A stretch of DNA of 64,000 nt from an uncultured Verrucomicrobiales bacterium (GCA_937928735.1 CALFVF010000008.1:1971-65970), one strand, 5' to 3'. Positions 1 to 3,488 are shown, counted from the first letter of the stretch. The notes: generated from the letters alone by a model not told the origin. Made by a program: numbers and translations.

Positions 1-407
1 CTGACCGGTTTGCCTTCGATGACTTTTGCCTCAGTGACGACGCCGTCGCGCAGTGCTTTGAGGGGAATGACTGGAGGAGGATTTCCGGGCTGACGGCTTT
101 CGACTTCGATCAAGGTTTCCCCTCGCTCGACTCGATCTCCAATACGTGTGTTTACCTTTAGAGCTCGCCCCGGGATTCGTGAAGAAATAGCATAGCCATG
201 TCCGGGAACATCTTCGACACGGCCAATTGCAAAGACGGATTCATTGAAGACCCGCTCTTCGACCTCGATGGTTTCGAGGCGAAGGTTTTTCACACCTGTC
301 TCATTGAGAATGATGGTGTTCGCGATACGCTCGGGATCAATGGCTTCCTCAGCGTGAAGCGGAGTGAGGCAGAGAAGTGAGAGGAGGAAAAATGATGATG
401 ATTTCAT
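1..407 (-). CDS. RND efflux periplasmic adaptor (CzcB/CusB-like), N-terminal part, runs off window
   Basis: Own translation from ATG at 407: MKSSSFFLLSLLCLTPLHAEE..ISSRIPGRALKVNTRIGDRVERGETLIEVES..LKALRDGVV. Signal peptide plus lipoyl-like half motifs; directly downstream of a TolC-family gene. Absent from the ORF track because it has no stop in the window. Confidence 0.78.
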   Translation of the reverse strand, partial: MKSSSFFLLSLLCLTPLHAEEAIDPERIANTIILNETGVKNLRLETIEVEERVFNESVFAIGRVEDVPGHGYAISSRIPGRALKVNTRIGDRVERGETLIEVESRQPGNPPPVIPLKALRDGVVTEAKVIEGKPV

Positions 408-436: not shown

Positions 437-1738
437 TTAGCCATTGGTCGCAGTGAGATAGCGCGAGCGGGCTTTGTGGAAATTCTGGCGGGCTTCGAGA
501 ATGGTGAGTTTGAGCGAAAGCTCCTGCTCACGAGCACGAAGGACATCTTGCAGCGGCACTTGGCCGCTTTGGTAAGCAGTGCTGACTTGGGCAAGGTTCT
601 CCCGTGCTTTGGGAATGAGATTCTTATCAATCCGCTGTGCGAGCTTCTGCCATTGAGTCATTTCCGCATAGGCCGCACGGACTTCTGCTGTGATGTTTTT
701 TTGCAGGGCAAGCGTGGTGAGATCCAAACGTTCACGCTCAGCCGCAGCCTCGCGGATATTGCCAGGAGTCTTGGGATCGGTGCCGAGAGGCATGCTAAAC
801 CGAATACCTACGATGACCTCCAGTTCTCCACCCTCGGGCTCGTCCTCCTCGCGGCCGAGACCAGCGAAGACACCGAGATCGTAGTCAGGAATTCCCTCGG
901 CCTGAGTCAGTGAGATAGTTTCTCCAGCAGACTTGGCTCGAAGGCGAGCGGCGGCGAGATCAGGTCGATCTTTTGGAATGGTGACAAGCATGGGTGGCAG
1001 GCTTGTCGGAGGTAGAGTGCCCGCGACAGAGAGTTCGGTTTCCTGATTGAGCCCTAGAACGGGTTTCAGTTTGGCCGCTGCAAGGTCGATTTGAATCTGG
1101 ATTTGCTCAGTCTTCGTCTGGATTCGAGTCACCTCGATTTCAGCCGTCGGAGCCTCTAACAAGGACGCTTCACCACGTTCCGCCGCCTCGTTGATAAAGT
1201 TGGCGAGTTCTTGCGCGTTTTCCGACTGCTTTTGTAGTAGGGCTTGCTCTTCTCTGAGAGCAAGGATTTCAATCAACTGTTCGCGAGCTTCGTCGACAAG
1301 GAGTCGCTCGGTATCGGCGACTTCGGCACGAGCGGCTTCTACGAGTATTGAGGAGACTCGTTTCTCAAGAAGTAGTCGGTTTGTTCTGGGAAAGCTTCGA
1401 GAGATACCTGCCGTCAGGAAGGGCTCGCGCAGATTCGCAGTGGTTTCAAACTCCACTTCAACGGTGGGGTTTGCTCTCAAGCCAGCCTTCTGCAAACGCC
1501 CTTGAGCGGCATCGATTAGCTTTCGAGCGGCAGTAAGGTTAGGGTTATTCCGCTGCACGAAGCTTCGGAGATTCGACAAAGTGAGAGCTACGTTTCCATT
1601 GTCAATGTAGCCGATGCTTTCGACAGCGATCTTCTTCGCTGAAGGTTTAACGGGAACAATTGGAAACTGGTTTGTTTGGGAGGAGCAGCATGGTGCTCCT
1701 AGTAGTAAGATAGGTAGAAAATAAAATAAGGCTTTCAT
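437..1738 (-). CDS. TolC-family outer membrane efflux factor (CzcC-like)
   Basis: Two OEP-type repeats (NPNLTAAR..NPTV; RPDLAAAR..IPDYDL) and helical coiled segments; likely start MKALFYF at 1738. Confidence 0.85.
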   Translation of the reverse strand: MKALFYFLPILLLGAPCCSSQTNQFPIVPVKPSAKKIAVESIGYIDNGNVALTLSNLRSFVQRNNPNLTAARKLIDAAQGRLQKAGLRANPTVEVEFETTANLREPFLTAGISRSFPRTNRLLLEKRVSSILVEAARAEVADTERLLVDEAREQLIEILALREEQALLQKQSENAQELANFINEAAERGEASLLEAPTAEIEVTRIQTKTEQIQIQIDLAAAKLKPVLGLNQETELSVAGTLPPTSLPPMLVTIPKDRPDLAAARLRAKSAGETISLTQAEGIPDYDLGVFAGLGREEDEPEGGELEVIVGIRFSMPLGTDPKTPGNIREAAAERERLDLTTLALQKNITAEVRAAYAEMTQWQKLAQRIDKNLIPKARENLAQVSTAYQSGQVPLQDVLRAREQELSLKLTILEARQNFHKARSRYLTATNG

Positions 1739-1844
1739 GCCAGTAGCTGTTGAATGTGAGTGCAACCGCCTCACACCAATCACATCGGTGGGGCGAGTTC
1801 ATTGATTCATGTCGACACACAAGTGGTGCCGCGCAGCTACGAGT

Positions 1845-2237
1845 TCAAAGCCTCACTACGCCAAAACGAAGATACACCGGAAGATCTGGCGGCGGTCTGG
1901 CAAAATCGGAAGGAACAATCGGATTCCGGGGGCGAAAAAGATTCTCTGGAGAGAAAGCGGCAAACGATCCGAAGATACCTTCGTCCGATGACGAATGATC
2001 GCTTTCCGGTGTGGCACGGACAAAGTCATCAACCTCTAAGTCGATCTCCAAATGCTGGTCTTCGCACGGCTCCTGTCCATCGGAGCAATCTGAAGGAGCC
2101 TCTTCTTCATGGGAGTGTGAACACTCCGAATGACCTTCAACCTCATGCTGTCCAACAAAAATCTCCGTCGTGCCTTCGCAAAATCCTACCGCCGACACCT
2201 GAGTGAGTGTCACGGATAGCATGGCCAGAAGCGCCAC
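1845..2237 (-). CDS. Small exported His/Cys/acidic-rich protein upstream of czcCB (CzcI/DUF2946-like leader) ending in ARPPP
   Basis: Hydrophobic N-terminus, HSECSHSHEEE and C..C..H clusters, C-terminal RPPP. Position matches czcI-type genes. True start uncertain: the frame is open further upstream without an ATG. Confidence 0.6.
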   Translation of the reverse strand: MALLAMLSVTLTQVSAVGFCEGTTEIFVGQHEVEGHSECSHSHEEEAPSDCSDGQEPCEDQHLEIDLEVDDFVRATPESDHSSSDEGIFGSFAAFSPENLFRPRNPIVPSDFARPPPDLPVYLRFGVVRL

Positions 2238-2605
2238 CAGAGATGAAAGTCGTTTTCCGATAGCAGAATGTCTCTCTTTTAGAGAAATACGTCAAATGAT
2301 TAGTTCACTGAAAAGTCAGTTCTGCCTTTAAGTTTCACAGCAAGAAAAGGGATAAAAATCGGCATGGATGATAAAGCATCAAATATGAGAAACTGAGACT
2401 TTGGAGTTACAGCACCAAGCTCTCTCAAACTGCGTCCCATTGAGCGTCTATCAAGAAGCTCAGAGAGCGCAGACCGATAGAAAAGCCATAGAAAACACCT
2501 ACTATAGGTCACCTCCGATAACCTCATTTCTGAAAATATCTCCAGTTTCTCCATCTCTGTGCTGCCCTCAATTCTGATGAATTCATTCAAAAGAAACTTG
2601 TCTGC

Positions 2606-3070
2606 TTAGCTATTATATCGCTGATGCAGTGGGAACTGACCATCGGTTTCAATGTCATAGTCAAGTTTCGGCGTAGCAACTTGTGGACTAAAGGGAGGAA
2701 TACCGCCGCCTCTATGGTAAAGGTGCTTCTCCATTCCTGTAAAACGACCGCAGCATTCCAGTATCAGGTACGAATACTGTGAATCGACGAAATCAACTTT
2801 GACGTTGATCCATTCTGGCACTTTGCCTTTACGATAGAGAAAGGCCGCCGCTTCAGCCTCATTTTTGGCGGGAAGAGTTGTCCATTGTGGGACCTCTTCA
2901 CCCGGGAAAATCTCCTCATCGTCCTTTAGAGAATTACCGTCATAGGAGCAATTTGGAACGATGAGTAATCTGGCTTTGTCAGGTAGTTCGTCAGAAACGA
3001 ATCGCCTTGTTGTCTCAAGGGTGCTTCTGATTGCCTCTCGAAGATTCGTCTGGAAATCGCCTTGTGTCAT
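2606..3070 (-). CDS. Hypothetical protein
   Basis: 154-aa ORF with globular composition (VPEWINV, ECCGRF); no family recognised. Confidence 0.55.
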   Translation of the reverse strand: MTQGDFQTNLREAIRSTLETTRRFVSDELPDKARLLIVPNCSYDGNSLKDDEEIFPGEEVPQWTTLPAKNEAEAAAFLYRKGKVPEWINVKVDFVDSQYSYLILECCGRFTGMEKHLYHRGGGIPPFSPQVATPKLDYDIETDGQFPLHQRYNS

Positions 3071-3393: not shown

Positions 3394-3488
3394 TGGCGGA
3401 GGGGGAAGGAATCGAACCAACCCGGGACCATTACAGCCCCACAACGGTTTTGAAGACCGCGGCGACCACCAGGCACACATCACCCTCC
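3394..3488 (-). tRNA. selC: tRNA-Sec (anticodon UCA), structurally irregular
   Basis: 95 nt; anticodon arm GCGGT-CTTCAAA-ACCGT; long variable arm GGGGCTGTAATGGTCCC; TTCGATT T-loop; GCCA end. T-stem, acceptor and D-stem contain mismatches. Confidence 0.8.

What the first reader, a model, noticed from the sequence alone, without database searches (positions are those of the whole stretch)
1739..2237. Possible metal-sensing arrest-peptide leader controlling czcCB(A)
Seen: an exported His/Cys-rich ORF ends in ARPPP, 13 codons before its stop. In the 106-nt spacer, GTAGCTG (1834-1840, just after the stop) can pair with CAGCTAC (1743-1749, just before the czcC ATG), and two small hairpins lie at 1755-1790. 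Known: RAPP-type motifs stall ribosomes (ApdA/ApcA class), and DUF2946 leaders with a metal-binding motif plus RAPP regulate downstream copper transport genes. Inference: an RPPP variant couples Zn/Co/Cd sensing during export to efflux expression. The 7-bp helix alone is not statistically strong.
Basis: partly seen in the sequence, partly recalled or inferred. Interest (0 to 1): 0.65.

Follow-up and report, generated by a model that had tools for sequence, protein, structure and literature searches.

The report
Metal-sensing leader gene clamping czcC start
A small exported, cysteine/histidine-rich leader gene in front of a heavy-metal efflux pump ends in a conserved proline-pause tail, and its last codons base-pair with the start codon of the pump's first gene; it is a new verrucomicrobial version of the known copper-sensing CutF/CruR leader switches.

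Summary
A 130-aa exported Cys/His-rich ORF (2237..1845, minus strand) has ARPPP 13 codons before a UGA stop. A 106-nt spacer follows, then czcC-czcB-czcA.

The leader's last four codons, the stop and 11 further nt (1857-1834) pair with the czcC AUG and its first four codons (1749-1725). That is 22 of 24 positions in most relatives. Two conserved hairpins lie inside it.

The leader has no Pfam or NCBIfam match. It belongs to a family found in 87 of 301 genomes of one verrucomicrobial family. Members precede OEP, HlyD-type adaptor or multicopper-oxidase genes.

Conserved features:
- four Cys;
- 54-57 residues from the last conserved Cys to the polyproline;
- 13-14 residues from the polyproline to the C-terminus;
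- an ...RL end;
- UGA in 28 of 29 loci, although UGA is the rarest stop in this genome.

This is a CutF/CruR-type metal-sensing leader in a new form. The geometry differs: a ribosome at PPP cannot reach the helix, only one at the last codons or the stop can. Only polyproline is conserved, not R-x-P-P. Stalling, metal identity and the sign of regulation are untested.

The parts
2290..2295 (-). TTGACG, a -35-like box
   Evidence: TTGAC(N) (TTTAC in L005) lies at a fixed distance before the invariant ATC in all ten close loci: 29 nt after the hexamer in nine, 30 in L004. In other subfamilies 29-30 nt separate it from GTG starts and 32-34 nt from the ATG starts of L017 and L039. The strict sigma-70 scan found no promoter, so the promoter is inferred.
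2259..2261 (-). Invariant ATC, the probable non-canonical start codon or transcript 5' end of the leader
   Evidence: ATC is invariant in 10 of 10 loci. Several of the following codons (3, 5, 7, 8) vary mainly at third positions, as in coding sequence. L004 and L003 lack a canonical start at the position of GTG 2237. In four loci a stop codon lies 3-4 codons upstream of ATC. Other subfamilies have GTG or ATG at this position.
1845..2237 (-). Leader ORF of 130 aa from GTG 2237 (138 aa if it starts at ATC 2261), stop TGA at 1847-1845
   Evidence: Ten homologues at 54-90% identity. No Pfam or NCBIfam family.
2190..2237 (-). Signal peptide: h-region LLAMLSVTL and a VSA|VG cleavage-type site
   Evidence: Read from the sequence. 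AF2 models residues 2-13 as a helix. Conserved in all homologues. No dedicated signal-peptide predictor was available.
2016..2189 (-). Cys/His-rich putative metal-binding segment, residues 17-74
   Evidence: C20, H31, C39-S-H41, C51, P57-C58 and H62 are invariant among close homologues. C20, C39 and P57-C58 are about 90% conserved family-wide. AF2 confidence is low.
1905..2015 (-). Linker, residues 75-111, variable in sequence but nearly constant in length
   Evidence: The distance from the PC[DE] Cys to the first Pro of the polyproline is 54-57 aa in 39 of 45 family members.
1887..1904 (-). FARPPP, residues 112-117, the candidate ribosome pause site (PPP codons 1895-1887)
   Evidence: Invariant in the close homologues, with synonymous changes in the Pro codons. 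PP(P) is present in 45 of 49 family members. A PPP stall is shown experimentally for CutF (bioRxiv 10.1101/2025.02.05.636593).
1848..1886 (-). Conserved 13-residue tail, DLPVYLRFGVVRL
   Evidence: Conserved at the protein level with synonymous variation, but R129 is AGG and L130 is CTT in 10 of 10 loci. The tail is 13-15 aa in 46 of 49 parsed family members; the three outliers include two (L020, P0023) where the script matched an upstream FPP instead of the EPPPP run (true tail 14). The ...RL end is nearly universal.
1834..1857 (-). 5' arm of the stop-start clamp helix: the last four codons, UGA and 11 nt of spacer
   Evidence: RNAalifold and RNAfold. 96% of cells are paired in ten loci. Removed in silico by a ribosome at the stop, but not by one at PPP.
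1725..1749 (-). 3' arm of the clamp helix: 11 nt upstream of the czcC AUG, the AUG (1738-1736) and the first four codons
   Evidence: The second codon AAA is identical in 10 of 10 loci and the third, GCC, in 9 of 10.
1813..1831 (-). Hairpin 1: CGGCAC/GUGUCG here, CACGGCAC/GUGCCGUG in most relatives
   Evidence: One pair shows the series G:C, G:U, A:U, and the loop is variable. A hairpin starts about 6-17 nt after the stop in most family loci.
1767..1795 (-). Hairpin 2: CACCGA/UUGGUG inside CGCC/GGCG
   Evidence: Two pairs show changes on both sides (C:G to A:U, U:A to C:G), and several are G:U, G:C or A:U.
437..1738 (-). czcC-like outer-membrane factor, 433 aa, with a lipoprotein-type signal MKALFYFLPILLLGAPC
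   Evidence: PF02321 OEP, E = 6e-36. ATG 1738 is the start: gene callers chose the equivalent ATG in the metagenome loci, and in L005 the upstream in-frame ATG runs into a stop.
3..407 (-). 5' part of czcB, the membrane-fusion adaptor; it continues off the window, followed by czcA
   Evidence: In the genome, czcB is C8:1232-2377 and the czcA N-terminus is C8:1-1239, cut by the contig end.

Best explanation
The small ORF is a cis-acting, exported leader of the CutF/CruR kind, a nascent-chain metal sensor. It sets how often czcC, and probably the whole czcCBA operon, is translated.

Shown by sequence and comparison:
- The leader's last four codons, its UGA and the next 11 nt form a long helix with the czcC AUG and its first codons.
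- A free mRNA therefore hides the czcC start, which has no Shine-Dalgarno sequence.
- Only a ribosome standing on the leader's last codons or stop occupies the 5' arm and frees the AUG.

Inferred:
- The leader is exported while it is being made.
- When the peptidyl-transferase centre reaches the polyproline, the last conserved Cys lies about 55-57 residues back. It has then just left the ribosome tunnel and the SecYEG channel.
- Metal binding (or blocked disulfide formation) in the Cys/His segment changes the pull on the chain.
- That change sets how long the ribosome waits at PPP, and so how many ribosomes reach the stop and open the clamp.
- The conserved 13-residue tail, the ...RL end and the UGA probably lengthen the stay at the stop.

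For an efflux pump the output should be ON with metal. With this geometry that needs metal to speed release from PPP or to prolong the stay at the stop. CutF does the opposite: it melts its hairpin directly from the PPP site.
For: - The leader-OEP-MFP-RND order and a 103-106-nt spacer recur in ten close loci.
- The spacer DNA is 86-88% identical, while the leader proteins are 54-90% identical.
- The clamp helix pairs 22 of 24 positions, with 96% of cells paired. The whole structure is 95% paired, against 30-40% for slid partners. Folding z = -2.9 (window) and -6.3 (R. marina).
- Codons inside the helix are frozen (AGG, CTT, TGA, AAA in 10 of 10), while the Pro, Val and Leu codons nearby vary synonymously.
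- Analogous stop-region to start-region pairings occur in other subfamilies. Duplex p <= 0.007 for the L020/L027/L029 and L039 types. In the L040/L037 type the 5' arm lies at +5 to +20 after the stop.
- Masked folding: a ribosome at the stop removes the helix, a ribosome at PPP does not.
- Family-wide rulers: Cys to PPP is 54-57 aa, and PPP to the C-terminus is 13-14 aa.
- UGA is the stop in 28 of 29 loci, against 16% of long ORFs in this genome.
- Downstream genes are OEP, HlyD/CusB-type MFP or multicopper oxidase. These are the same classes as for published CutF-like leaders (PMC9973294).
- AF2 gives no stable fold (pLDDT 56). This fits a transient sensor better than a structural protein.
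- The genome has EF-P.
- CutF precedent: a Cu-dependent, EF-P-sensitive stall at PPP, four Cys, an essential Sec signal, and a C-terminus ...GPPPRL.
- CruR precedent: a conserved ruler between the metal motif and the arrest motif.
Against: - There is no experimental evidence of stalling, export or metal response for any member of this family.
- The clamp helix shows no pair with changes on both sides within the close subfamily: 13 pairs are invariant and 5 vary on one side. Its support is therefore thermodynamic and conservational, plus analogy between subfamilies.
- PPP is 13-14 codons from the stop, so the CutF mechanism cannot be transferred directly. The sign of regulation has to be postulated.
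- The tail after PPP is conserved as protein, even in L017, which has lost the prolines. It may therefore act in the finished protein.
- Arg before the prolines is not conserved.
- The start codon is unresolved.
Confidence: 0.55

Rival explanations
1. Termination-pause variant. The real arrest point is the UGA stop, not PPP. The whole conserved 19-residue C-terminus (FARPPPDLPVYLRFGVMRL) sits in the exit tunnel when the ribosome reaches UGA, with PPP near the constriction. It slows RF2-dependent release, as TnaC or SpeFL do. The ribosome paused there covers the 5' arm of the clamp and holds the czcC AUG open. Metal binding to the exported part modulates this pause.
For: - Conservation runs right up to the stop. 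In known arrest peptides it ends at the arrest point.
- The PPP-to-C-terminus length is fixed at 13-14 residues.
- The ...RL end is nearly universal, and UGA is used in 28 of 29 loci although it is the rarest stop in this genome.
- In this subfamily the G of UGA is mismatched in the helix, so pairing does not explain the choice of UGA over UAA.
- The 5' arm lies where a terminating ribosome sits, and in the L040/L037 type (L028/L032 by inspection) entirely after the stop.
- The one locus with TAA (L017) has also lost RPPP.
Against: - No known arrest peptide has this sequence.
- The base after the stop is U in most loci, 23 of the 29. From memory, that is an efficient termination context in E. 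coli.
- PPP is a proven stall site in CutF.
- The 54-57-residue ruler points to PPP, not the stop, as the position where the sensor domain has just emerged.
Confidence: 0.2
2. Ordinary accessory protein. The ORF encodes a small periplasmic metal-binding protein, a CzcI-like accessory, chaperone or regulator that acts after release. The helix is plain translational coupling that keeps czcC in step with it. The prolines and the tail are structural or interaction motifs of the mature protein.
For: - The protein is conserved along its whole length, including the tail.
- The tail survives loss of the prolines in L017.
- CzcI of Cupriavidus is a small periplasmic protein upstream of czcCBA without a proline motif (PMC9973294 discussion).
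- Translational coupling by start-site occlusion is common (general knowledge).
Against: - AF2 finds no fold.
- The linker varies in sequence but is fixed in length, a ruler known from CruR.
- Polyproline within about 15 residues of the C-terminus, a Sec signal, Cys/His ligands and OEP/MCO neighbours together make up the published CutF-like signature.
- A weak or non-canonical start and a single copy per operon fit a sensor better than a stoichiometric partner.
Confidence: 0.18
3. RNA-only element. The structured 106-nt spacer is itself the sensor: a riboswitch-like or protein-binding RNA, or an RNase processing site. The leader peptide sequence is irrelevant to control.
For: - The spacer is more conserved than the leader protein, and two hairpins show covariation.
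- A GCUC[AG]G...UUGAGC hairpin recurs after the stop in 11 of 29 family loci.
Against: - No Rfam family matches.
- Hairpin loops and junctions differ between subfamilies.
- In a riboswitch of this shape, ligand binding would stabilise the closing helix and switch an efflux pump off.
- It does not explain the conserved peptide features or the two length rulers.
Confidence: 0.05

Closest known systems
CutF of Rhodobacter capsulatus (cutFOG) and 'CutF-like' proteins (PMC9973294; bioRxiv 10.1101/2025.02.05.636593)
   Same: - A small (<150 aa) Sec-exported leader with four Cys.
- A PPP motif near the C-terminus, and a C-terminus ending in RL.
- The downstream gene's initiation region is hidden in an RNA structure that leader translation must open; it acts in cis.
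- Neighbours are OEP, MFP or multicopper oxidase.
   Different: - No detectable sequence homology, and no DUF2946 hit.
- Here PPP is 13-14 residues, not 2, from the C-terminus, so the stalled ribosome cannot reach the helix.
- The structure is a long-range helix of about 24 positions. It joins the stop region directly to the AUG across a 106-nt structured spacer. In CutF it is a local stem-loop over a Shine-Dalgarno sequence.
- A conserved post-proline tail and a UGA stop.
- The phylum is Verrucomicrobiota.
CruR (Bp2923) of Bordetella pertussis, DUF2946/PF11162 (PMC9426467)
   Same: - An upstream ORF with an export signal and a metal motif.
- A proline arrest motif, and a conserved number of residues between the two (45 there, 54-57 here).
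- A long intergenic region (162 nt there).
   Different: - CruR has CXXC and RAPP three residues from its end.
- It acts through Rho-dependent termination and switches an importer OFF with copper.
- It is independent of EF-P and of its signal peptide.
- Here there is no CXXC, no RAPP in the window copy and no Pfam match, and the downstream gene is an efflux component.
RAPP/RGPP arrest peptides ApdA, ApcA, ApdP and SecM (PMC7897499, PMC10951233, PMC10987492, PMC12992588)
   Same: - RPPP is an RxPP sequence. Ala-to-Pro variants of ApdA and ApdP keep part of their arrest activity.
- Some relatives carry RAPPP or RGPPP.
- The motif sits in a small exported protein upstream of a regulated gene.
   Different: - Arg is not conserved in this family.
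- The motif is not at the C-terminal end.
- The downstream genes are metal-resistance genes, not Sec/YidC components.
- The sequence upstream of the motif is unrelated.
TnaC / SpeFL-type termination arrest peptides (from memory)
   Same: - A conserved peptide that runs up to a stop codon (UGA in TnaC).
- A ribosome held at the stop would control the downstream genes.
   Different: - Those peptides sense a small molecule inside the tunnel and control Rho access.
- Nothing here shows inhibition of termination.
- The sensor part here is exported.

Membership tests
CutF-like proteins (operational definition of PMC9973294) | Protein shorter than 150 aa | tested here: met
   130 aa from GTG 2237, or 138 aa from ATC 2261.
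CutF-like proteins (operational definition of PMC9973294) | N-terminal Sec-type signal peptide | tested here: met
   Judged by inspection only: h-region LLAMLSVTL, VSA|VG site, and a KR n-region if the start is ATC. AF2 models a helix at residues 2-13. Conserved in all homologues. No SignalP-type tool was available.
CutF-like proteins (operational definition of PMC9973294) | [quoted passage not shown] | tested here: met
   The last 15 residues are PPDLPVYLRFGVVRL. P116-P117 sit at the very edge of this window.
CutF-like proteins (operational definition of PMC9973294) | Cys and/or His metal-binding motif in the exported part | tested here: met
   C20, C39-S-H41, C51, P57-C58 and H62 are conserved. 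Metal binding itself was not tested.
CutF-like proteins (operational definition of PMC9973294) | [quoted passage not shown] | tested here: met
   czcC (PF02321) lies 106 nt downstream. Relatives precede OEP, HlyD-type MFP or multicopper oxidase genes.
CutF-like proteins (mechanism) | Metal-dependent ribosome stalling at the proline motif that opens the downstream initiation site | not testable with these tools
   Needs toeprinting, pulse labelling or reporters. In silico, a ribosome at PPP does not open the helix.
DUF2946 / PF11162 (CruR family) | Match to the Pfam model | tested here: not met
   No hit at E <= 1 for the window protein or for any of 22 family members.
DUF2946 / PF11162 (CruR family) | CXXC copper motif | tested here: not met
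   The leader has no CXXC. Its Cys residues are at positions 20, 39, 51 and 58.
DUF2946 / PF11162 (CruR family) | RAPP motif about three residues from the C-terminus | tested here: not met
   The motif is RPPP, with 13 residues after it.
DUF2946 / PF11162 (CruR family) | Conserved spacing between the metal motif and the proline motif | tested here: met
   54-57 residues in 39 of 45 members, across a linker of variable sequence. CruR has 45 +/- 2. This is an analogy of design, not evidence of homology.
RAPP-type arrest peptides (ApdA/ApcA/ApdP) | Invariant Arg followed by a small residue and Pro-Pro at the arrest point | tested here: not met
   The window has RPPP, but relatives have E/D/N/Q/S before the prolines.
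RAPP-type arrest peptides (ApdA/ApcA/ApdP) | Encoded upstream of a Sec/YidC pathway gene | tested here: not met
   The downstream gene is an OEP of an HME-RND pump.
Known metal riboswitches and other Rfam families | Match to a covariance model | tested here: not met
   The only hit in 1600-2400 is a chance snoRNA match, E = 3.1.
CzcI of Cupriavidus metallidurans | Sequence similarity to CzcI | not tested
   No CzcI sequence was at hand. The literature says CzcI lacks the C-terminal proline motif.

The most novel reading that the evidence does not exclude
The family would be a two-checkpoint nascent-chain sensor, in which the stall site and the RNA switch are physically separated. A force-sensitive polyproline gate is placed by a 54-57-residue ruler, so that the Cys/His segment has just emerged in the periplasm. 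A second, peptide-programmed pause follows at an RF2-read UGA stop: the 13-residue tail ending in RL. There the ribosome sits on a stop-start clamp helix and licenses initiation 106 nt downstream. Metal would then act by releasing the ribosome, not by holding it, at the proline site. That is the opposite logic to CutF with the same parts. The mRNA may in addition be leaderless and start with AUC.
Probability: 0.2. Interest if true: 0.7.

Novelty: new variant of a known kind. Interest (0 to 1): 0.5.

Why it matters
CutF and CruR showed that bacteria can read periplasmic copper through a nascent exported peptide. How general this is, and how the geometry can vary, remains open.

This locus adds several things:
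- A lineage-specific, unannotated family in Verrucomicrobiota, with no homology to DUF2946 detectable by the Pfam model.
- It has the same parts list as CutF and CruR, but heads RND-pump, adaptor and multicopper-oxidase genes.
- Its layout shows that a ribosome held at the prolines cannot be what opens the switch.
- Two conserved length rulers and an unusually conserved UGA stop give precise, cheap mutational tests.

It also explains how an HME-RND operon with no regulator gene in the 4 kb upstream might be controlled. For annotation, these leaders and their spacers are currently missed or called from wrong start codons.

Tried and rejected
- Upstream GTG 1783 as the czcC start: rejected. In L005/L006 the equivalent frame hits a stop, and gene callers and the signal peptide favour ATG 1738.
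- Selenocysteine read-through of the leader UGA. I considered this because a tRNA-SeC gene lies 1.1 kb upstream and a hairpin follows the UGA. Rejected, for three reasons. A 1-nt indel shifts the frame after the UGA between window/L007 and the other loci. The 'extension' is not conserved. L025 has TGA TGA.
- Known RNA family: none found.
- Intrinsic terminator or strict sigma-70 promoter in 1600-2700: none found.
- Fold-based classification: the AF2 model is too poor (pLDDT 56, pTM 0.21), so no fold search was run.
- Alternative pairing that would let a ribosome at PPP open the clamp: none found in masked folding.
- Duplex tests with long search windows and few shuffles were uninformative. I replaced them with start-window tests. 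Several subfamilies (L025, L033, L041-L043) still show no significant stop-start duplex by that measure.
- Assignment of the pump to Cu/Ag or to Zn/Co/Cd from the TM4 motif AVGMVVDDAIVDVEN: left open.
- Supplement search of PMC9973294 for Verrucomicrobia: no text held.

Full report
**What is there**

On the minus strand an ORF runs from GTG 2237 to TGA 1847-1845 (130 aa). It begins with a hydrophobic segment and a VSA|VG site. A segment with four Cys and several His follows, then an acidic and serine-rich linker. The ORF ends FARPPPDLPVYLRFGVVRL.

After a 106-nt spacer comes an outer-membrane-factor gene (ATG 1738, PF02321, E = 6e-36). Then comes a membrane-fusion gene. In the genome, czcB (381 aa) and the first 413 codons of a CusA/CzcA-type RND gene follow, up to the contig end.

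**The leader is a real, conserved gene without a family name**

It has no Pfam or NCBIfam match. None of 22 relatives matches DUF2946. Ten homologues (54-90% identity) keep C20, H31, C39-S-H41, C51, P57-C58, H62 and the whole FARPPPD.LPV..R.G..RL end.

All loci that could be read have the order leader, OEP, MFP, RND. The spacer is 103-106 nt in each. One of these loci is in Rubritalea marina DSM 17716.

A profile search of 1.8 billion representatives finds only 14 clusters. A six-frame search finds the family in 87 of 301 genomes of the same GTDB family (11 of 20 genera, up to five copies per genome). In a 300-genome sample of the phylum it finds only the window's own genome and one other genome of the same family. 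The family is therefore lineage-specific.

Other members precede OEP genes, HlyD/CusB-type adaptors or multicopper oxidases. These are the same neighbour classes reported for CutF-like leaders.

**The RNA**

The spacer is more conserved (86-88% column identity) than the leader protein.

The 5' arm is AAUGAGGCUUUGAUGCCCGUAGCU: the last four codons, UGA and the next 11 nt. It pairs with AGCUACCGGCAUGAAAGCCUUAUU: 10 nt upstream of the AUG, the czcC AUG and its first four codons. Stop and start codon lie opposite each other.

In the window the arms are 1857-1834 and 1749-1725. The structure is both MFE and centroid, with z = -2.9 and 0 of 200 shuffles as stable. In R. marina z = -6.3.

Across ten loci 95% of cells pair, against 30-40% when the partners are slid. 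Two inner hairpins carry the compensatory changes:
- Hairpin 1 (1831-1813) shows G:C, G:U, A:U at one pair.
- Hairpin 2 (1795-1767) shows C:G to A:U at one pair and U:A to C:G at another.

The long helix itself has no double changes in this shallow set: 13 pairs are invariant and 5 vary on one side. Its support is different. Codons inside it are frozen (Arg AGG, Leu CTT, TGA and Lys AAA in 10 of 10), while neighbouring Pro, Val and Leu codons vary synonymously.

Other subfamilies have their own stop-region to start-region pairings:
- CUUUGA with UCAAAG at -22 to -5 of the AUG in L020/L027/L029.
- A 5' arm at +5 to +20 after the stop, paired across the AUG, in L040/L037 (and L028/L032 by inspection).

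Not every subfamily gives a significant duplex. No Rfam family matches.

**Geometry**

Masking a ribosome footprint at the prolines leaves the clamp intact. The mean unpaired probability of the AUG region stays at 0.27. Masking a ribosome at the stop removes the clamp, and the value rises to 0.50.

So the switch is worked by a ribosome on the last codons or the stop, not by one held at PPP, 39 nt upstream. In CutF, PPP is two residues from the end (...GPPPRL), and the stalled ribosome itself melts the stem-loop.

**What is conserved in the peptide**

In 49 family sequences the prolines are nearly universal, but the residue before them is not. The variants are RPPP, RAPPP, RGPPP, RGSPP, EPPPP, DPPPP, NPPPP and QPP. 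The motif is therefore polyproline, not an RAPP variant. RxPP with x = Pro does keep partial arrest activity in ApdA and ApdP.

Two lengths are fixed:
- 54-57 residues from the PC[DE] cysteine to the first proline (39 of 45), across a linker of variable sequence.
- 13-14 residues from the prolines to the C-terminus.

The first ruler recalls CruR, where a 45-residue spacing between CXXC and RAPP is needed for regulation. It is about the length needed to span the ribosome tunnel plus the translocon (my inference).

The second ruler needs its own explanation, together with three other facts. The tail is conserved as protein. The ...RL end is nearly universal. UGA is the stop in 28 of 29 loci, in a genome where UGA ends only 16% of long ORFs. 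In this subfamily the G of UGA is mismatched in the helix, so pairing does not explain it. L017, the one locus with TAA, has also lost the prolines.

AF2 gives no stable fold (pLDDT 56). EF-P is present in the genome.

**Most likely mechanism**

I read this as a CutF/CruR-type nascent-chain metal sensor coupled to a stop-start clamp (confidence 0.55).

Shown:
- the parts;
- their conservation;
- the occlusion of the czcC start;
- that only a terminating ribosome can relieve it.

Inferred:
- co-translational export;
- a pause at PPP whose length depends on metal binding or disulfide formation in the Cys/His segment;
- hence control of how many ribosomes reach the stop;
- a tail/UGA-dependent dwell at the stop.

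An efflux pump should be ON with metal. With this geometry that requires metal to speed release from PPP or to lengthen the stay at the stop.

Rivals:
- The arrest point is the stop itself (0.2).
- An ordinary periplasmic accessory protein with plain translational coupling (0.18).
- An RNA-only sensor (0.05).

**Comparison and novelty**

The leader meets every item of the operational CutF-like definition. The PP motif sits at the very edge of the 15-residue window. It fails the tests for DUF2946: no Pfam match, no CXXC, and no RAPP at the end. It also fails those for the ApdA/ApcA class.

It works like CutF or CruR but is not a demonstrable member of their sequence family. Its layout differs: a distant proline site, a conserved tail, UGA, and a long-range clamp over a structured 106-nt spacer. 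I rate it a new variant of a known kind.

Earlier notes of this scan describe similar leaders in other phyla. They agree with this reading but are not independent evidence.

**Limits**

- Nothing here shows stalling, export or a metal response.
- The metal is unknown. The RND is of the CusA/CzcA family, with TM4 motif AVGMVVDDAIVDVEN.
- The start codon and the transcript 5' end are unresolved.

Noticed in passing
window 2295-2259 (-); L003-L013, L017-L043: A TTGAC(N) box (TTTAC in L005) lies before the leader's start position: 29-30 nt before the GTG starts and the ATC, 32-34 nt before the ATG starts of L017 and L039. The start codon is GTG in many subfamilies, ATG in a few, and an invariant ATC in the window's subfamily. 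L004 (R. marina) and L003 have no canonical start that would keep the signal peptide. This suggests a leaderless or near-leaderless mRNA that may initiate at AUC.
   Followed up: partly
window 1847-1845 (-); 29 family loci: UGA is the leader's stop in 28 of 29 loci, although only 16% of long ORFs in this genome end in UGA (TAA 49%, TAG 35%). In this subfamily its G is mismatched in the helix. The reason is unexplained.
   Followed up: partly
L017 (G023:C41), protein P0011: A sister copy has lost the prolines (…AKITPNLPVFLRFGVMRL), uses TAA and has a much weaker stop-start helix, but keeps the tail and the OEP gene. It is a natural 'PPP-minus' variant that could be compared experimentally.
   Followed up: partly
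L024, L026, L028, L030-L033, L035-L037, L040: +4 to +12 after the leader stop: A hairpin GCUC[AG]G-(covarying inner stem)-[UC]UGAGC follows the stop in 11 of 29 loci. In L037 and L040 the sequence UUGAGCC occurs a second time directly before the downstream AUG. GCUCAG could therefore pair with either copy, which would make a mutually exclusive switch.
   Followed up: partly
L030, L033 (multicopper oxidase); L020, L027, L029, L034, L039 (HlyD/CusB-type protein, about 450 aa, starting MSL...): Paralogous leaders of the same family head multicopper-oxidase and membrane-fusion genes. Some genomes hold up to five copies.
   Followed up: partly
window 1844-1647 (-): In the window only, the frame stays open for 66 codons after the leader UGA and encodes a CDWC motif. 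This comes from a 1-nt deletion and a 2-nt insertion relative to the other loci, and it is not conserved.
   Followed up: yes
window 3394-3488 (-): A tRNA-SeC gene (anticodon TCA) lies between ybaB and the leader locus. L007 has the same dnaX-ybaB neighbourhood, with other small genes in between.
   Followed up: partly
window 2606-3070 (-) and 2300-2590 (-): Two ORFs (154 and 96 aa) between the tRNA-SeC gene and the leader have no Pfam match; the 154-aa ORF also has no NCBIfam match (the 96-aa ORF was not run there).
   Followed up: no
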